In this document: positions 147-30,619 of the stretch, piece by piece
Numbering within the stretch: the first letter of the stretch is position 1
How the letters are laid out: the number at the start of each line of letters is the position of its first letter
Assembly (NCBI GenBank): GCA_022616085.1
Contig: JAKEFN010000096.1
Span: 1 to 44,323, forward strand
Source of the DNA: a bacterium
GTDB taxonomy: Bacteria > Patescibacteriota > Minisyncoccia > Phycocordibacterales > JAKEFN01
Length of the DNA: 44,323 nt
Direction: 5' to 3'
Program-made: the position numbers and the translations under genes
Notes under the pieces: model-generated
Database searches by the model: none
The model's input: only the letters and a program-made list of their open reading frames with translations
What the model was told of the DNA's origin: nothing

Positions 147-1571
147 TTATGAACCAACAAAAATATCCATGAATTGCGGCACCGGAAGGGCGTCAAATCT
201 CTCCAGATCGTCAAAAAGTTCCAAAATTTTCTCCCTATGTCTGGAGGTGAAAAGCTTGTATTCGGATTCGGCTAGGTTTCGCGTAAACTTTTCCCGAATA
301 AGCGGGAGCGCTTCCTCGCGCCTCCGAGGATGGCCGAGCGGGAACTCTATCGCGATCTTTTTTGTCTGTTTCGGCTTCTTTTCAACAGTCGAATTTTTGA
401 AAAAGACCTGCACGGAGCTTCCGACCGAGCGAAGCGCCGGATCGTAATAATTGCGCGTAAACGCGTCATTCACCCGCACTTCCATTTTTGTGCGAAGTTC
501 GTCAATCCGCGAATCTTTTGCGGCATCATTCTCGTAATCTTCCGAAACAATGCCCCCCTTCAAGAGCGCGACCGCCACCGCATATTGAAGGCAGTGATCG
601 CGATCCGCGGGATTCTTGAGCGGGCCGGACTTATTAATAATCCGCCATGCCGGCTCTTGTGTTTCAATAACTATCCTCCTTATTTCCGGTATGCGATCAA
701 TAACTTCCGGACGAATCTTTATTGCCGCTTCCACCGCGGTTTGCGCGTGAAATTCCACAGGCGAGAGTTTGAACAGGATGTTTTCCATCACATACGATCC
801 ATATTGGAACCACTCCGGAAATTCAAACTCCTTCCCTCCCCAAAACACATCGTAAAATCCGTATGTAGGGGCGGTAAGTATTTTGGGATATCCGGGTTCG
901 CCGTGTAGAGATATAACCGCGAGCTCCACCGCTCGCTTCGCCGCATCTCCCGCGGCCCAGCATTTCCGCTGTCCTGTCTGCGGCGCATGCCGATATGCGC
1001 GAAGCGTTCCTCCGTCGCAAAAAACCTGCGAAATCACCGCGGCTATTCCCTCTTTGGAAAGTCCAAGGAGATGCGCCGAAACTGCGGCTGACGCGAGCTT
1101 CACAAGAATAACATGGTCAATGCCGCGCTTATTAAAGCTGTTTAGGAGCGCCATGCCGCCTTGAATATCATACGCTTTGATGAGCATGGTCAAAACATCC
1201 CGCATGGTTAACTTTACCCCGCACCGAGAAAGATAGCTAGCGACCGAAAGAATCGCGCCAAGGTTGTCGGACGGATGCCCCCATTCGGCTGCAAGCCATG
1301 TATCATTGTAATCAAGCCATCGGATTATTACCCCGAAAATGAATGCGCTAGAGGCGGTATCGATCTCAAACAGAGCTTCATCTATCGTGAGTGCGCGCGA
1401 TATAATAAAAGATCGGCAGTTATCACCCGCTTTCATCGCGCACCCCATGGCATCCATGAGCGCAAGGCGTGCAGTGTCGTATGCCGCTTCGTTCTCTATC
1501 GGTGTTTCAGCTACATACGTCGCGATGTCTTGAATAACCTGATCATATTCTTCAAACTGAATTGGTGTCAT
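147..1571 (-). CDS. prpD: MmgE/PrpD family protein (2-methylcitrate dehydratase-like)
   Basis: A 474-aa ORF whose length and sequence pattern are typical of the MmgE/PrpD family (e.g. ALMDAMGCA, WLDYNDTW, GHPSD). It overlaps the upstream citrate-synthase-like gene by 20 nt. Confidence 0.85.
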   Translation of the reverse strand: MTPIQFEEYDQVIQDIATYVAETPIENEAAYDTARLALMDAMGCAMKAGDNCRSFIISRALTIDEALFEIDTASSAFIFGVIIRWLDYNDTWLAAEWGHPSDNLGAILSVASYLSRCGVKLTMRDVLTMLIKAYDIQGGMALLNSFNKRGIDHVILVKLASAAVSAHLLGLSKEGIAAVISQVFCDGGTLRAYRHAPQTGQRKCWAAGDAAKRAVELAVISLHGEPGYPKILTAPTYGFYDVFWGGKEFEFPEWFQYGSYVMENILFKLSPVEFHAQTAVEAAIKIRPEVIDRIPEIRRIVIETQEPAWRIINKSGPLKNPADRDHCLQYAVAVALLKGGIVSEDYENDAAKDSRIDELRTKMEVRVNDAFTRNYYDPALRSVGSSVQVFFKNSTVEKKPKQTKKIAIEFPLGHPRRREEALPLIREKFTRNLAESEYKLFTSRHREKILELFDDLERFDALPVPQFMDIFVGS

Positions 1572-2679
1572 GCAATACCTCGTCCGGTTGCGACCCGATG
1601 TAGCGCGCCATGGGACGAATCAGTGTATCGAGCTCGCGCTGTTCAATGATATGCGCGATAGCCCCTGGCAAACGCCCGATTTCAAAGAGCGCGGTGAAAA
1701 AATGCTGGTCAATGCCGAAAAGGTGATACACAATCGCGGTATAAAAATCCACGTTCGGATAAAGATGTTTTTCTGCAAACATCGTCATTTCGATTACTTC
1801 GGCAATCTTAAGCAACTCCGTGCACGAACGTTCTCTGCACAAACGCCACGCATCTTTTTTTATGATACCACTCCGCGGATCGCCATGCTTATACATGCGA
1901 TGGCCGAATCCGGGGATTTTCTTTTTCTGGACAAGCATATTTTGGATGCCAATGAACGCATCTGCCAAATTCCCAAATGATAAAATAAGATCAAGCGAAT
2001 CCTCGCTCGCTTTGCCGTGAAGCGGCCCGTAGAGCGTGCAAATACCCGCGCAGATTGCCGAATATATGTCGACGCGCGTGCTTGCGCATACCCGTGTCGC
2101 AAATGTGGATGCATTGAGGTCGTGATCGCCATACCCGATAAGAGAACGGCCCATGGCGGCCGCATCCGTGCCCTCCCCGACCATACGGAGCGCATGTGCG
2201 GCAATACTCTCGGGCTTGTCGCCTTTTGGTTCTTTCCGCAATAGCTCTCCCAAAACCGCATTCCTGAAAAATCCAAGCATCGCGGGAAGAGCGCCCAAGA
2301 GCGTCGCGCCGATTTTACGCGCGCTTCGAGCTGACGGCGATTGCTCCGGAAACGCAATACCTTGCGCGGTTACGCCCACCTTAAGAACATCCATCGGGTG
2401 GGTCGTGCGCGGAAGCGATCCGATCGCCTGTTTTACGATTGTGTGGAGTTTCCTGCCACCCGCGACCCGCCGCATGAATTCCCGCTCTTCGGTATCATCC
2501 GGCAATTTTCCATACATGAGCAGATATGCAACCTGATCGTATGAGCAGTCCCTTACAAGCTTATCCAACGGGAAACCACGGTATATTAGGCCTTTTTCAT
2601 GTCCAACGCACGAAACCGCAGTCTCGCACACAACGACCCCCTCAAGCCCGGGAACGATAGGTAATTCGGTCTTTTTCAT
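1552..2679 (-). CDS. Citrate synthase family protein (citrate or 2-methylcitrate synthase)
   Basis: A 375-aa ORF with the citrate synthase signature GFGHRMYKHGDPRS. A GGAGG RBS lies 8 nt upstream of the ATG. Confidence 0.9.
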   Translation of the reverse strand: MKKTELPIVPGLEGVVVCETAVSCVGHEKGLIYRGFPLDKLVRDCSYDQVAYLLMYGKLPDDTEEREFMRRVAGGRKLHTIVKQAIGSLPRTTHPMDVLKVGVTAQGIAFPEQSPSARSARKIGATLLGALPAMLGFFRNAVLGELLRKEPKGDKPESIAAHALRMVGEGTDAAAMGRSLIGYGDHDLNASTFATRVCASTRVDIYSAICAGICTLYGPLHGKASEDSLDLILSFGNLADAFIGIQNMLVQKKKIPGFGHRMYKHGDPRSGIIKKDAWRLCRERSCTELLKIAEVIEMTMFAEKHLYPNVDFYTAIVYHLFGIDQHFFTALFEIGRLPGAIAHIIEQRELDTLIRPMARYIGSQPDEVLHDTNSV

Positions 2680-22935: not shown

Positions 22936-24237
22936 ATGCGTTTCATCGCAGATTTTCACATACATTCGCACTATTCGCGAGCAACCTCAAGGCGCATGAA
23001 CATCGCGGAGCTCGCCGCATGGTCGCAAATCAAGGGCGCGACCGTCGTCGGCACCGGCGATTTTACTCATCCGCTATGGTTTGAGGAAGTGCGGGAAAAA
23101 TTGGAACCAGCGGAACCGGGGCTTTTCAAACTCAAAGGCGCAATCGAGAAAAAAATCGAACAAAATGTGCCCGCGAAATGCCGCGCCCCGATGCGCTATT
23201 TCCTTAGCGTCGAGATCAGCACGATCTACAAAAAAAACGATCGGGTGCGGAAAGTGCACAGCCTCGTTTTTGCGCCGGTATTCGCCGCCGCGTCAAAAAT
23301 AAACGCCGCGCTTGGAAAAATCGGAAACATCAACTCCGATGGCAGACCGATTCTGGGTCTTGATACGAAAGAGCTTCTGAAAATCGTTCTTGATGCGTCG
23401 CCCGACTGCATGCTTGTCCCCGCGCATATATGGACTCCGCATTTCTCCGTCTATGGATCGCAGTCCGGCTTTGACTCGCTTGAAGAGTGCTTTGACGAGC
23501 TTGCGCCACGCATCTATGCGATTGAGACAGGGCTCTCCTCCGATCCCGCCATGAACTGGCGAATTCCGGAGCTTGATACCCGCGCCATTATCTCGAACTC
23601 GGACGCGCATAGTCCGGAAAAACTCGGCCGCGAAGCGAATCTCTTCAACACCGAGCTTTCATATTTCGCGATAATGGACGCGCTTAAAAAAAACGACCCG
23701 AGAGCGTTTCTCGGCACGATTGAATTTTATCCGGAGGAGGGCAAATACCATTTGGACGGCCACCGCAACTGCAAAACGCGCCTCCACCCCAAAGAAACGA
23801 TCAAACGGAAAGGCCTCTGCCCCGTATGCGGACGGCGCGCGACGATCGGCGTCATGCACCGCGTTGAAACGCTTGCGAAAAGGCCCGAAGGATTCGATCC
23901 GAAAAAAAGGCCGCCCTTTAAAAGCATCGTGCCGCTTCCTGAAATTTTGGCCGAAGTCTTGGGTGTTTCCGGATCGGGAAGCAAAAAAGTGCGCGAACTC
24001 CACATGAAGATGATCCATGATCTCGGCAACGAATTTACGATTCTCCTAGACGCCCCGCTTGAAGATATTGCGCGAAGCGCGGGCGAGATAACAGCCGAAG
24101 CGGTCAAGCGTATGCGCAAAGGCGCGATCACAATTCTCGGCGGCTACGACGGAGAATACGGGACGGTTCGCATTTTTTCCGACAAAGACCGCACCAAATT
24201 CGCATCTCCGCCAAAATCCCAAAAACCCCTTTTCTAA
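22936..24237 (+). CDS. PHP-domain protein resembling endonuclease Q (EndoQ)
   Basis: The N-terminus FIADFHIHSHYSRATSRRM...VVGTGDFTHPLW and the zinc-finger-like CPVCGRRATIGVMHRVETL match what I recall of EndoQ-family proteins. It is 433 aa. Confidence 0.75.
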   Translation: MRFIADFHIHSHYSRATSRRMNIAELAAWSQIKGATVVGTGDFTHPLWFEEVREKLEPAEPGLFKLKGAIEKKIEQNVPAKCRAPMRYFLSVEISTIYKKNDRVRKVHSLVFAPVFAAASKINAALGKIGNINSDGRPILGLDTKELLKIVLDASPDCMLVPAHIWTPHFSVYGSQSGFDSLEECFDELAPRIYAIETGLSSDPAMNWRIPELDTRAIISNSDAHSPEKLGREANLFNTELSYFAIMDALKKNDPRAFLGTIEFYPEEGKYHLDGHRNCKTRLHPKETIKRKGLCPVCGRRATIGVMHRVETLAKRPEGFDPKKRPPFKSIVPLPEILAEVLGVSGSGSKKVRELHMKMIHDLGNEFTILLDAPLEDIARSAGEITAEAVKRMRKGAITILGGYDGEYGTVRIFSDKDRTKFASPPKSQKPLF

Positions 24238-24291: not shown

Positions 24292-24987
24292 TTACTCTAA
24301 CATCATGACTTTATAATCAGGGCTGTCATCGATACTGAAATTTTTAAGCTCTTCTTTAACGGATTTCCGGTATTTTTCTTCTCCGCCAAAAAAATCAAGA
24401 AAATATCCTCTTTGGGTTACTGCCGGGAAATTTTTCTTTCCAAGGTAGTCCAGATGACTGCTCCAGCGATAATTTTCAAGGAAAGAAAGCGCGTCATTGG
24501 TGTTTTTAATTTTTCGGCCCCGCCAATCATGGCCTGATAAATCAAGCGGATTGAAATGAATATAATAAGGGATAAAAAGAAAATGACGGTCGTTTTCTAT
24601 ATAAAACCTCTTAAATCTCCCCTGGAATAAAGCTCCCACCCTTTGATATTTCTCGTTGAAATATTTTGCATATCCTATATTGAGCTTTGTCATAAATTTT
24701 GTAATACCCCCATCGATAACCGGAGAGAGAAGAAGATGATAGTGGTTTGGCATCAAAGCGAAACAATGAATGTTCACCAAAAGTTCACGCGGTTCTTTTT
24801 TTTGATCATAATATTTCAAACCCCTTTCAAGGTTCTGCGCAAAATAAAAATTATTTGAAGAGGCCTTCGATCGATCGTTGAACTCAAACAAATCGTGAAC
24901 GAAACGAAAATAGTCTTTCTTGTCATTAAAAATTAACCGCTTGTCAACACCGCGGTTGAGAACATGATAAAATTCCATATTTTGCAT
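24292..24987 (-). CDS. IS200-like / REP-associated tyrosine (Y1) transposase
   Basis: YHVLNRG...CFALMPNHYHLLL (HUH motif)...GALFQGRFKRF...YIHFNPL fits the Y1_Tnp (PF01797) pattern. It is 231 aa. Confidence 0.88.
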   Translation of the reverse strand: MQNMEFYHVLNRGVDKRLIFNDKKDYFRFVHDLFEFNDRSKASSNNFYFAQNLERGLKYYDQKKEPRELLVNIHCFALMPNHYHLLLSPVIDGGITKFMTKLNIGYAKYFNEKYQRVGALFQGRFKRFYIENDRHFLFIPYYIHFNPLDLSGHDWRGRKIKNTNDALSFLENYRWSSHLDYLGKKNFPAVTQRGYFLDFFGGEEKYRKSVKEELKNFSIDDSPDYKVMMLE

Positions 24988-26115: not shown

Positions 26116-26141
26116 CAAAAAAACGGCGATTGAATCGCCGT
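26116..26141 (-). terminator. Rho-independent terminator downstream of ileS
   Basis: The minus strand reads acggcgatt-c-aatcgccgt followed by ttttttt. Confidence 0.65.
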
Positions 26142-26206: not shown

Positions 26207-29200
26207 TCATTTTTTTGCAACCAAATGAAGCAGTATGCTCTTCCCCCCGACTTCCGCTTTTTCGCCTTTCTCCAAATCGACAAAGCGCATATCCGAAAGC
26301 CCTGCGGCTTTTTTGAGATACTCCAAAGAATCCGCCAAATCCTCTTCGACAGTGCGGCTTATTTCGAGAACGGCGCGGTCGGACGGCGCAAGCGCCGCAA
26401 TCTTCCGAAGCCCTTGTATGCTCCGGAGTATTTCTCTCAAATCTCCTTCTTTTTTGAGCGCCGGCGTAATTTCGGTGTCAAGCGTTACCTCCGCCGCATC
26501 GCCGAAACGGGCATCCTTCACATTCACCTCGTCGAGCACGACCTCGATAGTATTCGGAAGACTCCATGCGTTCGGGATCGTTACCTTTCCGAGCGGCTGT
26601 CTCACGCGAATGCCCGCGCGGCTCCGCTTCTCGAGGATGACATTCACGGCATCGCGCGCACGGCCCATCTCCGCGATAATTTTTTCTTCATGTCCGGAAA
26701 AATCCTCGCTCCACCATTCTGCGAGGTGAACGCTCTCGGGATCGCTCTCGCCGCGAACCTCCCTGTATACGCGCTCGGCGATAAACGGCATGAAGGGGGC
26801 GATTATTTTTGAAAAATTCAAAAGAACGAAGCGGGTCGTTCGAAGAGCGCGGAGAGTGTCTTCGCGGTCGTCTCCTTTAAAGCGTTCGCGCGAACGGCGA
26901 AGATACCATGTGGAGAGGTCATCGATAAAAAGACCGATGGGGCGCACCGCCGCCTCGATATCATACGCGTCCATCTGTTCGGCTACACCGATCGAAAGTT
27001 CGCGGAGCCGCGCGAGAATCCACTGGTCGAGAACGTGCCCGCTCTCGCGCTCCGAATCCCCCACATCGAACGATCCCTTGTAAAGCATGTAAAAAGAAAG
27101 CACGTTATCAAGCCGAAGTATGTTTTTTTTATAAATCTCGTCGACTCCCTTTTCGGAAAAATGAAGGTCTTCTGATTTCATAATCGGAGAGGAGAAGAGA
27201 TAGAGCCGAAGGGCGTCAACGCCGTATGTGTCGATGAGAATGTTCGGATCGGGAAAATTCCCTTTTGATTTGGACATTTTTGCGCCGTCTTCGGCGAGAA
27301 CAGTGCCGGTCGTTACGATATTTTTGAATGGAATCTCATCAAACAAAATAACGGAAATAACGTGCGTATAATAAAACCATGTTCTCGTCTGGGCGATATA
27401 TTCAGCGACAAAATCCGCCGGAAAATTCCGCTTTTCAAATTCTTTCTTGTTCTCGAACGGATAGTGGAACTGCGCGAACGGCATGGAGCCTGATTCGAAC
27501 CAGCAGTCAACCACTTCGGAGATGCGCCGCATTACTCCGCCGCATCCTGCCGAATCGCAGGGCCAGACAAACGCATCAATATAGGGCCGATGGAGATCAA
27601 GCTCATAATTCCTATTATGAGGGAACGGCGCGTATTCGATCGCGCGGACGTCGGCGTTCCCAAAAATCGAGTATTTGCCTCCCCAAAGATCCGCCGCCGC
27701 GGAGTCGTCGAGTCCCCGCGCCGCCGCGAGAAGAAGCCCCATGGGCGCGTCATGCATGACAAAAAGAATGTTCTTTCCTTCATGGGAATCCTCAAAAGAA
27801 ACGAGAGCGTCGCCTATTCGTTTTTTTATGTCATGGTAGTCTTCGCCGCCGATTTTCTCGGTGAAGCGATCTTTTACCGATTTGAAATGCCGATGGTATT
27901 CGTCCACGGATTTCCCTTCGAATGTTCCGCCGGATACTTCGCGAATCCGATCATCTATATGAAGCGCGCTCTCCGGAAGGCCAAGCTCCTCGCGCATAAT
28001 CTCCGCAGTTTCCCGCGCCCGAAGAATCGGAGAGGAAACGATAAGATCAATTGCCGCCTCTTTCTTCAATTTCGATGCGGCGGATTTTGATTGATCCCGT
28101 CCCAAAGGCGTCAGATGATGAGCATCTTCTTGGAGGGTGCCGAGAGTGTTTTTTACATTATTTTCGGACTCGCCGTGCCGCATGGCGAAATATCTGTTCC
28201 GAGGCTTCACTCGCTTCTTTAGATCGTCAAGCGAACCCATGACTTCAATCGCGCCGCACGCAGAGCATTTCCAAAAAGGAAGCGGAGACGCCCAGAAACG
28301 ATTGCGGGAGATGTTCCAATCCGGCGCGCTTTCGACTATTTTTTTATATCGGCCCTCTTTCAAATGCTCCGGAATCCAGTTGATTTTTTCATTTGTTTTG
28401 AGGACGCGGTTCTTTATCGGATCGATTTTGATGAACCATGCCGGCAAGGCGTAATAGAGAAGCGGCGTTTCGCACCGAAAACAATGCGGGTATGAATGCT
28501 TGATTGTTTCTTTTGCAAAAAGCGCCCCGCGAACGGCGAGAGACCTAAGCATCTCTATATCGGCGGCTTTGTGATTGTCTTTCGGCTTCACCGGTATCCC
28601 TTGGAACAGTGGCTCTCCGGATACATCGGCAAAATTGTCTTTGAATTTTCCCTCGGGAGTCACGTGCCAAACGATCGGCAGATTTTCTTTCTTCGCGAGA
28701 CTCATATCATCCTCCCCGAACGCGGGAGCGATGTGGACGATTCCCGTTCCTTCATCCGTTGTTACGAAATCGGCGCCATACACCTTCCAGCCGTTCTCGC
28801 GGTTTTTCAAATTCTTTTCTTTCTCATAATAGCCAAAAAGCGGTTTATATTTTTTACCGATGAGGTCTCGACCGGAAAATTCATCCGTTATTGCTAATCT
28901 TATTTGTTTAAAAATAAACGCTCCGTCCCCCTCTCTGTATTTTTCATCATCCAGAATATTTTTTGCCACAATAACAAATTTTTCTTCCGATGAAACAAGA
29001 CCATGCGTATTCGATCCGGCAAAAACTTTCGCTTTCACATAAACAATCTCCGGATTCACCGCAAGCGCGGTATTCCCCGGCAATGTCCACGGAGTGGTCG
29101 TCCACGCAAGGAGATATGTCCCGGGCAGATCGGCAAGCTCAAACTTCACATACGCCGAAATGTCGCTTATATCCTTATAGCTTCCGTCCATCGCAATTTC

Positions 29201-29785
29201 CGCATTTGCAATAGGCGTCTCGCACCGCGGGCAATACGGAAGAACGCGCGTTCCTTCATAGATGAAACCTTTGCCCCAAATTTCTTTAAGCGCCCACCAG
29301 ACAGACTCGATAAACGTATTGTCCATCGTCTTGTATGATCCGTCAAAATCAACCCACCGCCCGATCCGCTCCACCGTTTTTTTCCATTCCGCGGCATAAG
29401 CAAGGACGGACCCGCGCGCGCGTTCATTGAATATATCCACCCCGAGTTTTTCTATCTCGCGCTTGCCCGAAATTTTCAAATCCTTTTCCACGATGTTCTC
29501 AATCGGAAGCCCGTGGCAATCCCATCCCCACACGCGCCGGACAGAACGCCCTTTCATGGTCTTGTAGCGCGGTATGGCGTCTTTAATGACGCTCGCAAGA
29601 ATATGTCCGTAATGCGGAAGACCGGTCGCAAATGGAGGGCCGTCGTAGAAAACAAAAGGCTTCCCGTCCTTCGTCTTTTCAAGCGTTTTTTCAAAAATCC
29701 CATTTCCGCGCCAAAAAGAGAGCGTTTCCTCCTCGCGAAGCGCCACAGCGGATTTTTTGGTTTTTTTTGCTTCATTTTCAGCCAT
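26207..29785 (-). CDS. ileS: Isoleucyl-tRNA synthetase with an internal histidine-phosphatase-like domain
   Basis: HIGH-type PHYGH, KMSKS, a CP1 editing region (TTTPWTLPGN) and a 1192-aa length. Residues ~529-722 (RYFAMRHGESENN...) look like a phosphoglycerate-mutase-family module. Confidence 0.93.
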   Translation of the reverse strand: MAENEAKKTKKSAVALREEETLSFWRGNGIFEKTLEKTKDGKPFVFYDGPPFATGLPHYGHILASVIKDAIPRYKTMKGRSVRRVWGWDCHGLPIENIVEKDLKISGKREIEKLGVDIFNERARGSVLAYAAEWKKTVERIGRWVDFDGSYKTMDNTFIESVWWALKEIWGKGFIYEGTRVLPYCPRCETPIANAEIAMDGSYKDISDISAYVKFELADLPGTYLLAWTTTPWTLPGNTALAVNPEIVYVKAKVFAGSNTHGLVSSEEKFVIVAKNILDDEKYREGDGAFIFKQIRLAITDEFSGRDLIGKKYKPLFGYYEKEKNLKNRENGWKVYGADFVTTDEGTGIVHIAPAFGEDDMSLAKKENLPIVWHVTPEGKFKDNFADVSGEPLFQGIPVKPKDNHKAADIEMLRSLAVRGALFAKETIKHSYPHCFRCETPLLYYALPAWFIKIDPIKNRVLKTNEKINWIPEHLKEGRYKKIVESAPDWNISRNRFWASPLPFWKCSACGAIEVMGSLDDLKKRVKPRNRYFAMRHGESENNVKNTLGTLQEDAHHLTPLGRDQSKSAASKLKKEAAIDLIVSSPILRARETAEIMREELGLPESALHIDDRIREVSGGTFEGKSVDEYHRHFKSVKDRFTEKIGGEDYHDIKKRIGDALVSFEDSHEGKNILFVMHDAPMGLLLAAARGLDDSAAADLWGGKYSIFGNADVRAIEYAPFPHNRNYELDLHRPYIDAFVWPCDSAGCGGVMRRISEVVDCWFESGSMPFAQFHYPFENKKEFEKRNFPADFVAEYIAQTRTWFYYTHVISVILFDEIPFKNIVTTGTVLAEDGAKMSKSKGNFPDPNILIDTYGVDALRLYLFSSPIMKSEDLHFSEKGVDEIYKKNILRLDNVLSFYMLYKGSFDVGDSERESGHVLDQWILARLRELSIGVAEQMDAYDIEAAVRPIGLFIDDLSTWYLRRSRERFKGDDREDTLRALRTTRFVLLNFSKIIAPFMPFIAERVYREVRGESDPESVHLAEWWSEDFSGHEEKIIAEMGRARDAVNVILEKRSRAGIRVRQPLGKVTIPNAWSLPNTIEVVLDEVNVKDARFGDAAEVTLDTEITPALKKEGDLREILRSIQGLRKIAALAPSDRAVLEISRTVEEDLADSLEYLKKAAGLSDMRFVDLEKGEKAEVGGKSILLHLVAKK

Positions 29786-29824: not shown

Positions 29825-29852
29825 CAAAAAGAAGCCCCGTCTCCAACAGGGC
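29825..29852 (-). terminator. Rho-independent terminator after the EEP gene
   Basis: The minus strand reads gccctg-ttggaga-cggggc followed by ttcttttt. Confidence 0.55.
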
Positions 29853-29899
29853 AAAATCAACAATATGTATACTATCATTTTTATTATAGCATCTACAAT

Positions 29900-30619
29900 T
29901 TATTTGTCGAGTTCAATATCAACCCAAATTGGGGAATGGTCGGATCCATACGTTTTTCGAGAAATTGACCGTTCCTTAATCACTCTTGAATCCGGCGCGA
30001 TGATGAAGTCAAGCTGCATCAAAAAACCCGGATAGGTAATCTTCCCGCACGAAACATCTTGGAAACCGTAGCGGCGCACGAGTTCGAGAAGCGACCTTTT
30101 CTCATGCATTCCATATTCATCAGCTCTCGACGATCCCGAGTGTATTCGCTCAAAAAGCATAAGCACCGGCTTGAGCCACTTCCTCCCGAATGCATTGAAG
30201 TCGCCGCAGAGAATGGTTCGCCCATCAACATGCCGGCGCATGATCGAATCAAGCTGTTTCAGCCGCGCGGCGGGAGAGAGCGTATTCTCCATATGAGCGT
30301 TGATTATTTTAATTCGTTCACGCCCGCGGCGCGCCTCAATATAGTGGAAACCCTGTGCTTCAATATCGCCCGCTTTTTCGACAAAAAATTCGTTCCGCGC
30401 CAAAATGGCCATGCGGCATTTCTTTTTTCTCTTATGCGTCAGGCCAAAAGTATCTTCATGCGTAAAAATAGACCATGATCCGTCATCTTCGATCATCTGA
30501 AGAAGCGGCTCGGTCACTTCTTGGAGACATATGAAATCAAAACCATCGCGCTTAATGAACGAGTATACATCGCGATACCGTTCGTTCCGCGCCCAGACAT
30601 TCCACGTGAGAACTCTCAA
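29900..30619 (-). CDS. Endonuclease/exonuclease/phosphatase (EEP) family protein
   Basis: MRVLTWNVW...ICLQEV...GDFN...GSDHSPIWVDI. Confidence 0.88.
   Translation of the reverse strand: MRVLTWNVWARNERYRDVYSFIKRDGFDFICLQEVTEPLLQMIEDDGSWSIFTHEDTFGLTHKRKKKCRMAILARNEFFVEKAGDIEAQGFHYIEARRGRERIKIINAHMENTLSPAARLKQLDSIMRRHVDGRTILCGDFNAFGRKWLKPVLMLFERIHSGSSRADEYGMHEKRSLLELVRRYGFQDVSCGKITYPGFLMQLDFIIAPDSRVIKERSISRKTYGSDHSPIWVDIELDK

What the first reader, a model, noticed from the sequence alone, without database searches (positions are those of the whole stretch)
27620..28201. Isoleucyl-tRNA synthetase carries an inserted histidine-phosphatase (RHG) domain
IleRS is 1192 aa. After the zinc-knuckle-like segment WKCSACGAIEVMGSLDDLKKRV, and before the conserved DLHRPYID...CWFESGSMPF block, sit about 195 residues. 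They begin RYFAMRHGESENN and continue ...SSPILRARETAEIM...FVMHDAPM.

The RHGE motif and this spacing are the hallmark of the histidine phosphatase / phosphoglycerate mutase superfamily. In IleRS sequences I know, these two flanking blocks are separated by only a short linker. A phosphatase module embedded in the catalytic body of an aaRS would be an unusual fusion. Possible roles are hydrolysis of a nucleotide, an aminoacyl-adenylate or an alarmone, or a regulatory or moonlighting function.
Basis: partly seen in the sequence, partly recalled or inferred. Interest (0 to 1): 0.7.

Follow-up and report, generated by a model that had tools for sequence, protein, structure and literature searches.

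The report
Phosphatase domain embedded inside IleRS
An essential translation enzyme (isoleucyl-tRNA synthetase) of an uncultured ultra-small bacterium carries a complete, apparently active phosphatase inside its catalytic body, and related bacteria keep the same phosphatase either inserted in this enzyme or encoded right next to its gene, which points to an undescribed partnership.

Summary
Window 26207-29785 (-) encodes a 1192-aa type-2 IleRS. Residues 529-722 (window 27620-28201) are a complete branch-1 histidine phosphatase domain (Pfam PF00300, E 8e-32). It replaces a 6-8-residue linker in the middle of the CP3 zinc-knuckle subdomain.

It is not a chimera. The 120 best homologues (48-57% identical, independent assemblies of Parcubacteria-type CPR bacteria) all share the architecture, and the catalytic residues R536, H537, N543, R589, E616 and H678 are almost invariant.

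New here:
- Other IleRSs carry the domain at three further sites, or in 2-4 copies, and every aligned copy keeps both catalytic histidines, both arginines and the glutamate.
- A free-standing ~190-aa form of the same family lies directly upstream of an insert-less ileS in 8 of 10 contigs long enough to show neighbouring genes.
- 66 control ileS loci have no such gene nearby.

The AlphaFold models are confident. The insert most resembles small-molecule phosphomonoesterases (GpgP, iPSP, PhoE, CobC).

Best reading: an active phosphatase that is an obligate IleRS partner. The substrate is unknown. My guess is an adenosine-phosphate moiety, either free or at tRNA A76. I found no publication on it. 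I rate it a new variant of a known kind, interest 0.7.

The parts
26207..29785 (-). ileS: complete type-2 isoleucyl-tRNA synthetase, 1192 aa, with the inserted domain
   Evidence: ORF. TIGR00392 scores 823 bits, above its cut-off. PDB sequence matches to IleRS2, yeast, C. albicans and T. thermophilus IleRS with E 1e-194 to 1e-202. AF2 model has pLDDT 89.9 and pTM 0.85; its best fold matches are IleRS2 8c8v, ScIleRS 8wnd and 1ile, TM 0.82-0.90 normalised to the target.
28202..29785 (-). IleRS aa 1-528: first Rossmann half (HIGH = HYGH, aa 58-61, nt 29603-29614), CP core, CP1 editing domain (WTTTPWT at aa 228, GTGIVHIAP at aa 346), CP2, and the first half of CP3
   Evidence: T229-T231, H351 and D360 are invariant in the alignments.
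27620..28201 (-). Inserted branch-1 histidine phosphatase domain, aa 529-722
   Evidence: PF00300 E 7.9e-32. PhoE 1h2e E 9e-14. Insert-only AF2 model has pLDDT 93.4 and pTM 0.91. Foldseek TM 0.70-0.78 to GpgP, iPSP, HFP, PhoE and CobC. The spacing between aa 526 and aa 728 is 199-215 residues in 120 homologues.
28172..28180 (-). RHG motif R536-H537-G538 (H537 is the predicted phospho-acceptor)
   Evidence: R and H are present in 120/120 homologues and G in 117/120. The motif aligns with the RHG of PhoE.
28019..28021 (-). R589, second phosphate-binding arginine
   Evidence: 120/120 conserved. Aligns with the equivalent Arg of PhoE.
27938..27940 (-). E616, predicted general acid/base
   Evidence: 119/120 Glu and 1 Asp. 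Aligns with the catalytic Glu of PhoE.
27752..27754 (-). H678, second catalytic histidine
   Evidence: 120/120 conserved. Aligns with the second catalytic His of PhoE.
28256..28267 (-). First Cys pair of the CP3 zinc knuckle (C507, C510; WKCSACG)
   Evidence: All four Cys (C507, C510, C743, C748) are present together in 81/120 homologues. T. thermophilus IleRS CP3 carries a zinc-binding motif (PMC7191050).
27542..27559 (-). Second Cys pair of the CP3 zinc knuckle (C743, C748; PCDSAGCGG). The phosphatase sits between the two pairs.
26207..27619 (-). IleRS aa 723-1192: second half of CP3, second Rossmann half (DLHRPYID, CWFESGSMPF, QTRTWF), KMSKS (aa 836-840, nt 27266-27280), anticodon-binding domain, C-terminal DUF5915
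29883..29910 (-). Promoter-like site upstream of ileS (TCGACA-16-TATAAT with TG extension, 11/12)
   Evidence: Consensus scan only.
26123..26141 (-). Terminator-like hairpin plus T-run downstream of the ileS stop codon. The gene looks monocistronic.
   Evidence: Consensus scan only.

Best explanation
SHOWN
- The gene encodes a complete type-2 IleRS. The synthetic motifs HYGH and KMSKS are present, the editing motifs are intact, and the anticodon-binding and C-terminal domains are in place.
- Its CP3 subdomain is split by a full ~195-residue branch-1 histidine phosphatase domain. CP3 is the small zinc-knuckle module between CP2 and the second Rossmann half. It starts right after the DWNxSRNRYWG linker that lines the tRNA-CCA pocket.
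- The insertion lies between the two Cys pairs of the knuckle. The junctions are short and modelled with high confidence.
- The catalytic set R536, H537, N543, R589, E616 and H678 is essentially invariant, although the domain as a whole has diverged to about 39% identity.
- The same phosphatase family occurs in three forms:
  (a) inserted at this site in many Parcubacteria/Paceibacteria-type lineages;
  (b) inserted at three other IleRS sites (window-equivalent aa 456-464, 773-788 and 904-916) or in 2-4 copies, with both catalytic histidines, both arginines and the glutamate kept in every aligned copy;
  (c) as a free-standing ~190-aa protein whose gene abuts or overlaps the start of an insert-less ileS, in an argS-phosphatase-ileS-recO cluster (proteins of this free-standing family that carry a source name are labelled Staskawiczbacteria or Parcubacteria).

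INFERRED
- The domain is an active phosphomonoesterase that works through a phospho-His537 intermediate, with E616 as the acid.
- It is a dedicated partner of IleRS (Rosetta-stone logic), rigidly mounted beside the mouth of the aminoacylation site.

SPECULATIVE (my committed guess, about 0.25 on its own)
- The substrate is a terminal phosphate on an adenosine moiety that competes for, or must enter, the synthetic site.
- That could be a free nucleotide (AMP, a 3'-phosphonucleotide) or a 2'/3'-phosphorylated A76 end of tRNAIle.
- The domain would then clear the site or restore a chargeable 3' end.
For: - Domain identity.
- Insertion point in CP3: plus the CP3 borders (C. albicans IleRS 473-534, yeast IleRS 459-526), the Zn motif of T. 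thermophilus CP3 and the CCA-pocket role of the CP2-CP3 linker in PMC7191050 and PMC7955072.
- Cys4 knuckle present in 81/120 homologues.
- Conservation of catalytic residues. The signature RHNREERH is kept in 201/221 site-A copies and in 12 of the 13 aligned copies of multi-copy or variant proteins; the remaining copy has Ala at the Asn position.
- Lineage-wide architecture: 120/120 best hits and 14 GTDB species loci.
- Other sites and copy numbers. The 1419-aa two-insert form is seen on six contigs of up to 1.06 Mb.
- Gene adjacency of free-standing homologues: P0259, P0224, P0206, P0189, P0355, P0309, P0321 and P0382. That is 8 of 10 contigs long enough to show neighbouring genes. Gaps are 1-17 nt or the genes overlap; one locus has a NUDIX gene in between and one has a small gene.
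- Control: none of 66 insert-less ileS loci (+/-6 kb) from other bacteria and other CPR groups has a family member nearby.
- Free-standing and inserted forms are each other's next-best relatives at 42-46% identity.
- Rigid mounting: pLDDT is 91-97 across both junctions and pTM is 0.85 for the full-length model.
- Specificity for IleRS: LeuRS, GluRS and SerRS in the same window lack the domain. All multidomain proteins among the best 150 representatives are IleRS, except three tandem His_Phos proteins and one unrelated fusion.
Against: - No activity, substrate or structure has been measured.
- I could not read model coordinates, so I do not know whether the phosphatase pocket faces the synthetic site.
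- The nearest solved structures are all small-molecule metabolic phosphatases unrelated to translation.
- The insert is acidic (median pI 5.7), which gives no sign of direct RNA binding.
- A need to remove AMP or repair tRNA ends would apply to all synthetases, yet only IleRS carries the domain.
- Two free-standing relatives are not next to an aaRS gene.
- The argS-ileS-recO cluster may be conserved by descent rather than by selection for the phosphatase-IleRS pairing.
- The presence/absence pattern on a rough NJ tree is patchy.
Confidence: 0.6

Rival explanations
1. Hitch-hiking housekeeping enzyme. The domain is an ordinary metabolic phosphatase or mutase (for example phosphoserine, phosphoglycerate-type or cofactor-pathway phosphatase) whose gene happened to lie upstream of ileS in a conserved translation-gene cluster. 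It was then captured into permissive surface loops of IleRS. Its chemistry has nothing to do with isoleucylation, and fusion only guarantees co-expression in a minimal genome.
For: - The best fold matches are metabolic small-molecule phosphatases: GpgP, iPSP, the riboflavin-pathway HFP, PhoE and CobC.
- The best NCBIfam hit is archaeal dPGM.
- Sources name free-standing members 'PhoE' or 'putative phosphoglycerate mutase'.
- The neighbourhood smpB-infC-rpmI-rplT-argS-x-ileS-recO is a generally conserved housekeeping cluster.
- Two relatives lie in non-aaRS contexts: one next to a ROK kinase, one next to glycosyltransferases.
- IleRS tolerates other large inserts, such as a Y1 transposase and a GNAT domain in P0236.
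Against: - There are independent insertions at four different IleRS sites and up to four copies per protein, each aligned copy keeping both catalytic histidines, both arginines and the glutamate. Passive capture explains this poorly.
- No other synthetase or neighbouring gene product is found fused to the domain.
- All equivalog cut-offs for dPGM, CobC, PspA and SixA are missed by a wide margin.
- 66 control loci show no such neighbour.
Confidence: 0.25
2. Protein phosphatase acting in cis. The domain removes an inhibitory phosphate from IleRS itself, for example one added by a HipA/HipT-like toxin kinase or a competitor's effector. It would act as built-in immunity, and the multiple copies would reflect an arms race.
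For: - The His_Phos superfamily includes genuine protein phosphatases (SixA, PGAM5, Sts-1), and toxin kinases are known to inactivate GltX and TrpS near the ATP site (my own knowledge, not tested here).
- Insertion sites A, A' and B flank the KMSKS region in sequence.
- The association is specific to one synthetase.
Against: - No kinase gene was seen in the window or in the 18 neighbourhoods examined.
- There is no hit to any PADLOC defence model.
- The fold neighbours are small-molecule enzymes, not SixA or PGAM5.
- IleRS is not a known kinase target.
Confidence: 0.07
3. Non-catalytic module. The phosphatase fold serves only as a structural, oligomerisation or tRNA-docking element, or as a ligand sensor.
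For: Inserted domains in class I synthetases often serve RNA binding (my own knowledge). The domain is rigidly packed in the model.
Against: - Near-invariance of all catalytic residues contrasts with about 39% overall identity. Pseudo-enzymes normally lose such residues.
- The pI is acidic.
Confidence: 0.05
4. Artefact: an assembly chimera or frameshift joining a phosphatase gene to ileS.
For: None found.
Against: - The ORF is continuous and the IleRS sequence resumes in frame on both sides.
- More than 200 independent homologues share the same junctions.
- GC3 is matched between insert and host gene.
Confidence: 0.01

Closest known systems
Small branch-1 histidine phosphatases: PhoE/YhfR (1h2e), mycobacterial glucosyl-3-phosphoglycerate phosphatase Rv2419c (4pz9, 6s2q), metal-independent phosphoserine phosphatase iPSP (4ij5), riboflavin-pathway HFP (9mmh), CobC alpha-ribazole phosphatase
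   Same: Same fold (TM 0.70-0.78). Same size of about 200 aa with a minimal cap. The RHG, R, E and H catalytic residues align. Presumably the same phospho-histidine chemistry.
   Different: Those are free-standing metabolic enzymes. This one is inserted inside a synthetase, or encoded as its immediate upstream neighbour. Identity is only 20-28%, and it reaches none of the equivalog cut-offs. Its substrate is unknown.
Canonical type-2 (eukaryote-like, mupirocin-resistant) IleRS, e.g. Priestia megaterium IleRS2 (8c8u/8c8v), T. thermophilus IleRS (1ile), yeast and C. albicans IleRS
   Same: Full domain order, HIGH and KMSKS, editing motifs and the C-terminal DUF5915 are shared, at 28-34% identity. 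The CP3 zinc knuckle is as in T. thermophilus (PMC7191050).
   Different: Those have a linker of roughly 1-6 residues where this protein has a 195-residue enzyme domain.
Bifunctional RNase H / acid phosphatase (Rv2228c type, NCBIfam NF005567)
   Same: A CobC/PhoE-like histidine phosphatase covalently joined to a nucleic-acid enzyme. It is the second-best NCBIfam match of the insert (82 bits).
   Different: That is an end-to-end fusion, not an internal insertion, and the partner is RNase H. The score here is far below the 326-bit cut-off.
IleRS with an extra N-acetyltransferase domain (NCBIfam NF040702 'ileS_w_GNAT')
   Same: Another IleRS variant that has acquired a second, unrelated catalytic domain (listed). 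One CPR IleRS (P0236) carries both His_Phos and GNAT.
   Different: The added domain is different (GNAT) and is apparently appended rather than inserted in CP3. The window protein matches that model only through its IleRS parts (309 bits against a cut-off of 1999).
Lineage-specific insertion modules of class Ia synthetases (CP1 editing domain, the leucine-specific domain of LeuRS)
   Same: An autonomous domain is inserted into a loop of the Rossmann-fold body close to the active-site entrance (my own knowledge, for orientation).
   Different: Those modules bind or hydrolyse aminoacyl-tRNA and are synthetase-specific folds. This one is a recruited phosphoryl-transfer enzyme.

Membership tests
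Histidine phosphatase superfamily, branch 1 (Pfam PF00300) | Profile match above the curated threshold | tested here: met
   110.9 bits against a cut-off of 21.7, E 7.9e-32, aa 534-699 covering profile positions 3-168 of 194.
Histidine phosphatase superfamily, branch 1 (Pfam PF00300) | N-terminal RHG motif with the nucleophilic histidine | tested here: met
   R536-H537-G538. R and H are conserved in 120/120 homologues and align with the RHG of PhoE.
Histidine phosphatase superfamily, branch 1 (Pfam PF00300) | Second arginine, second histidine and an acidic proton donor completing the phosphate pocket | tested here: met
   R589 (120/120), H678 (120/120), E616 (119/120) and N543 (117/120). The positions align with those of PhoE.
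Histidine phosphatase superfamily, branch 1 (Pfam PF00300) | Alpha/beta/alpha phosphoglycerate-mutase-like fold | tested here: met
   AF2 model of the insert has pLDDT 93.4. Foldseek gives 311 PDB matches at E<=0.001; the 50 best listed are all histidine-phosphatase / phosphoglycerate-mutase-family structures, the best with TM 0.70-0.78.
Histidine phosphatase superfamily, branch 1 (Pfam PF00300) | Phosphatase or mutase activity through a phospho-histidine intermediate | not testable with these tools
   Requires enzymology.
Cofactor-dependent phosphoglycerate mutase (dPGM; NCBIfam NF038349, TIGR01258 and related) | Equivalog-level profile score | tested here: not met
   dPGM_arch scores 94 bits against a cut-off of 225, and pgm_1 scores 24 bits against 81.7. 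The motif after the second His is H-D-A-P here, with G/E/D-x-P in homologues, whereas as I recall dPGMs have HGN (not checked here).
CobC alpha-ribazole phosphatase / PspA phosphoserine phosphatase / SixA | Equivalog-level profile score | tested here: not met
   TIGR03162 scores 68 against 163, NF045917 scores 54 against 350, and TIGR00249 scores 37 against 74.5.
Isoleucyl-tRNA synthetase, type 2 | Equivalog profile score, with best matches to type-2/eukaryote-like rather than type-1 IleRS | tested here: met
   TIGR00392 scores 823 bits against 621. PDB matches to IleRS2, yeast and T. thermophilus IleRS have E 1e-194 to 1e-202, against 1e-80 for type-1 S. aureus IleRS. The fold search agrees.
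Isoleucyl-tRNA synthetase, type 2 | Class I signature motifs HIGH and KMSKS, and CP1 editing motifs | tested here: met
   HYGH at aa 58-61, KMSKS at aa 836-840, WTTTPWT at aa 228, GTGIVHIAP at aa 346. All are invariant or nearly so in homologues.
Isoleucyl-tRNA synthetase, type 2 | Isoleucylation and editing activity | not testable with these tools
   Requires biochemistry. No second ileS is present in the 44-kb window, but the rest of the genome is unseen.
Mupirocin-resistance IleRS MupA/MupB | Exception-level score | tested here: not met
   699 and 666 bits against a cut-off of 1900.

The most novel reading that the evidence does not exclude
IleRS in these bacteria has a third catalytic activity beside synthesis and editing. 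A tethered histidine phosphatase would dephosphorylate the adenosine end that has to enter the synthetic site. For example, it could heal 2'/3'-phosphorylated or pyrophosphorylated tRNA(Ile) CCA ends, such as those made by toxins or nucleases, or destroy a phosphorylated adenylate-site ligand. That would make it a substrate-repair or immunity module built into a synthetase. The 2-4-copy variants and the NUDIX gene found between the phosphatase gene and ileS in one lineage would reflect stepwise removal of poly-phosphorylated ends.
Probability: 0.15. Interest if true: 0.9.

Novelty: new variant of a known kind. Interest (0 to 1): 0.7.

Why it matters
- **Enzymology.** Aminoacyl-tRNA synthetases are among the best-studied enzymes. 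As far as I know, their catalytic repertoire is aminoacylation plus hydrolytic editing, and added domains are mostly RNA-binding or regulatory.
- **Strength of the genomic signal.** An apparently active phosphoryl-transfer enzyme is welded into the catalytic body of IleRS. It is kept across a major class of the Candidate Phyla Radiation, re-inserted at several sites, multiplied in some lineages, and replaced by an adjacent gene in others. This kind of genomic evidence usually marks a real functional coupling.
- **What it could reveal.** It could expose a step in tRNA(Ile) charging, nucleotide handling or antagonism that is specific to ultra-small symbiotic bacteria.
- **Tractability.** The proteins can be expressed and assayed without culturing the organism.
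- **Annotation.** These proteins are currently named only 'class I tRNA ligase family protein' or 'isoleucine--tRNA ligase', and the free-standing partners 'PhoE' or 'putative phosphoglycerate mutase'.

Tried and rejected
- **Chimera or frameshift:** rejected.
- **Homology of the segment to a normal IleRS connective peptide:** rejected. Solved IleRSs have a linker of roughly 1-6 residues there.
- **Membership in dPGM, CobC, PspA or SixA:** all equivalog cut-offs missed.
- **Defence-system link:** no PADLOC hit. The only PHROG match is a phage His_Phos family of unknown function.
- **Regulatory RNA in the ileS leader:** no Rfam match.
- **Literature:** eight searches found no paper on the fusion. 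One hit, PMC6429109, mentions synthetase inhibitors and histidine phosphatases only in unrelated contexts.
- **Direct RNA binding by the insert:** not supported by charge; median pI is 5.7.
- **Single origin of the insertion:** a rough NJ tree of IleRS cores was patchy and has no support values, so I draw no conclusion beyond what the distinct insertion sites show.
- **Geometry of the phosphatase pocket relative to the synthetic site:** the tools return no model coordinates.
Full report
**1. Observation**

The minus-strand ORF 26207-29785 encodes 1192 aa. The finding's coordinates 27620-28201 equal residues 529-722.

Pfam results:
- class I synthetase core split into two stretches (PF00133, E 7e-128);
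- His_Phos_1 at residues 534-699 (PF00300, E 7.9e-32, 110.9 bits against a cut-off of 21.7);
- Anticodon_1 and DUF5915 downstream.

NCBIfam calls the protein ileS (TIGR00392, 823 bits against 621). It places the insert nearest to archaeal dPGM, the RNase H/acid-phosphatase fusion, CobC and PspA, but far below every equivalog cut-off. The best solved sequence relative of the insert is the broad-specificity phosphatase PhoE (1h2e, E 9e-14), with RHG, the second Arg, the Glu and the second His all aligned.

**2. Borders and location**

Against solved type-2 IleRSs the match breaks at query residue ~524-530 and resumes at ~728. The target residues on either side are 497/504 in C. albicans IleRS, 496/498 in yeast and ~480 in T. 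thermophilus. About 200 residues therefore replace a linker of roughly 1-6 residues.

The published domain borders put this point in the middle of subdomain CP3 (C. albicans IleRS 473-534, PMC7191050; yeast IleRS 459-526, PMC7955072). The same papers state two further points:
- T. thermophilus CP3 carries a zinc-binding motif.
- The CP2-CP3 linker (ARDWNVSRNRYWG) lines the pocket that binds the tRNA CCA end and reveromycin A.

Here the two Cys pairs C507/C510 and C743/C748 flank the insert. All four occur together in 81 of 120 homologues. The phosphatase is thus threaded into the loop of the CP3 zinc knuckle, about 35 residues after the CCA-pocket linker.

**3. Reality and conservation**

- The 120 best database hits (48-57% identical, 1124-1282 aa, from NCBI, JGI, ENA and Logan assemblies) all carry PF00300.
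- Where named, they come from Parcubacteria-group taxa: Taylor-, Nomura-, Zambryski-, Pace-bacteria and Paceibacterota.
- In GTDB representative genomes the insert is found in Wolfebacteria, Nomurabacteria, Yanofskybacteria, Spechtbacterales and Minisyncoccia, among others (14 loci).
- It is absent from the IleRS2 of Uhr-, Magasanik-, Peri- and Saccharibacteria examples and of all non-CPR bacteria sampled.
- The spacing between the flanking IleRS blocks (aa 526-728) is 199-215 residues.
- Pairwise identity is 39% for the insert and 59% for the rest of the protein. The two values correlate (r 0.44), as expected for co-inheritance.
- R536, H537, R589, H678, E648 and R656 are invariant in 120 sequences. 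E616 is Glu in 119, and N543 and G538 are conserved in 117.
- GC3 of the insert equals that of the host gene.
- The IleRS itself keeps HIGH, KMSKS and the editing-site residues.

**4. Structure**

The full-length AlphaFold2 model is confident (pLDDT 89.9, pTM 0.85). Both junctions score 91-97, which suggests a rigidly mounted domain rather than a floppy one. The model superposes on IleRS2, yeast and Thermus IleRS.

The insert alone models at pLDDT 93.4. Its best fold matches are ~200-aa small-molecule phosphomonoesterases, all with TM 0.70-0.78:
- glucosyl-3-phosphoglycerate phosphatase;
- metal-independent phosphoserine phosphatase;
- a riboflavin-pathway phosphatase;
- PhoE;
- CobC.

**5.

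An exhaustive HMMER search with the insert found 583 representative clusters at E<=1e-10. Of the best 150, 104 are IleRSs or IleRS fragments.

Some IleRSs have other architectures:
- P0162 and P0232 have a copy in CP3 plus a second copy in the loop before the anticodon-binding bundle (window-equivalent aa 904-916).
- P0153 and P0155 have one copy after the CWFESGSMPF block (aa 773-788) plus one at 904-916.
- P0208/P0393 has tandem copies in CP3.
- P0124 has four copies, including one in CP2 (aa 456-464).

Every aligned copy keeps both catalytic histidines, both arginines and the glutamate; one copy (P0124, third) has Ala at the Asn position. The 1419-aa form occurs on six contigs of up to 1.06 Mb. 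Copies within one protein are only about 35% identical to each other.

**6. Rosetta-stone evidence**

About 190-aa free-standing proteins of the same family exist. They are 42-46% identical to inserted copies, as close as inserted copies are to each other. A profile of them retrieves at least 120 single-domain proteins, named Staskawiczbacteria or Parcubacteria where a name is given.

I looked up 12 of them. Ten lie on contigs long enough to show neighbouring genes, and two (P0160 and P0270) lie on contigs too short to tell.
- In 8 of the 10, the gene lies directly upstream of an insert-less ileS (886-984 aa). The gap is 1-17 nt or the genes overlap in six of them; a NUDIX gene intervenes in one locus and a small ORF in another.
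- In six of these eight argS is seen upstream; in the four with enough downstream sequence recO follows ileS, and smpB-infC-rpmI-rplT precede in five.
- Two are in non-aaRS contexts.
- P0270 sits beside an argS-like fragment on a 1.9-kb contig, with no ileS in view.

As a control, none of 66 ileS loci without the insert (+/-6 kb; other bacteria and other CPR groups) has a family member nearby. On a rough NJ tree, IleRSs that have the adjacent gene nest next to insert-bearing ones (no support values, so only indicative).

**7. Interpretation**

Two conclusions follow:
- The phosphatase is under selection for catalysis.
- It is specifically tied to IleRS. Other synthetases in the window lack it.

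The mechanism of the domain itself follows from the family: attack by His537 on a terminal phosphate held by R536, R589, N543 and H678, followed by hydrolysis with E616 as the acid. What it dephosphorylates is not determined.

- *My preferred guess.* Given the position beside the CCA and adenylate entrance, I favour an adenosine-phosphate moiety, either a free nucleotide or a phosphorylated A76 end.
- *Main rival.* The domain may be a metabolic phosphatase that hitch-hiked from the upstream gene position. The fold neighbours favour this. The repeated, multi-site, multi-copy insertions restricted to IleRS count against it.
- *Minor rivals.* A cis-acting protein phosphatase, or a purely structural role, are less likely (no kinase seen nearby, no defence-model hit, and catalytic residues intact).

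**8. Novelty**

Public databases already show the two Pfam domains on these proteins, and annotation pipelines name them generically. Eight full-text searches found no description of an IleRS-histidine phosphatase fusion or operon. I class it as a new variant of a known kind: a synthetase with a recruited extra catalytic domain. The biology behind it is plausibly new.

Noticed in passing
related proteins P0155/P0153 (1419/1379 aa), P0162, P0232, P0124, P0208/P0393 (1484 aa): IleRSs with 2-4 histidine-phosphatase domains and three further insertion sites (window-equivalent aa 456-464, 773-788, 904-916). Every aligned copy keeps both catalytic histidines, both arginines and the glutamate.
   Followed up: partly
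L081-L083, L085, L088-L090, L093-L098: Conserved cluster smpB / infC-rpmI-rplT / argS - free-standing histidine phosphatase - ileS (no insert) - small ORF - recO, often with overlapping or abutting stop and start codons.
   Followed up: yes
L093:5587-6033 (Staskawiczbacteria genome contig JBAZUH010000001.1): A NUDIX hydrolase gene sits between the phosphatase gene and ileS in this lineage. This could hint at a two-step removal of a pyrophosphate-linked group.
   Followed up: no
P0236 (1066 aa) and window 24292-24987 (-): One CPR IleRS carries an IS200-like Y1 transposase domain inside the editing region, plus His_Phos, plus a C-terminal GNAT domain. In the window, a 231-aa ORF with a Y1_Tnp match lies two genes downstream of ileS. 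NCBIfam also lists an 'ileS_w_GNAT' family.
   Followed up: no
window 29834-29852 (-): A GC-rich hairpin followed by a T-run lies between the promoter-like site (29883-29910) and the ileS start codon. It could be the terminator of the upstream EEP-family gene or a leader attenuator. No Rfam family matches.
   Followed up: partly
window 147-2679 (-): Adjacent PrpD/MmgE-family (2-methylcitrate dehydratase-like) and citrate-synthase-family genes. As far as I know this is unusual for a genome that otherwise looks like a reduced CPR bacterium.
   Followed up: no
window 22936-24237 (+): A 433-aa ORF starting MRFIADFHIHSHYSRATS (PHP-like metal-binding motif) has no Pfam match at E<=1e-5.
   Followed up: no
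L010:4567-8415 ('Peregrinibacteria' MAG): An insert-bearing ileS is interrupted by a single stop between 5193 and 5197 under code 11. It could be a pseudogene, a sequencing error or an alternative genetic code.
   Followed up: no
L081:2709-5663, L090:1248-1502: Some phosphatase-adjacent IleRSs belong to a divergent subtype with GPITANNxMGVHHAW in place of GPPFATGxPHYGH at the HIGH region. The pairing therefore spans two IleRS subtypes.
   Followed up: no
insert and P0259 against PHROGs: Both match phrog_12933, a phage protein family of unknown function with the same fold (E 4e-21 and 8e-25).
   Followed up: no
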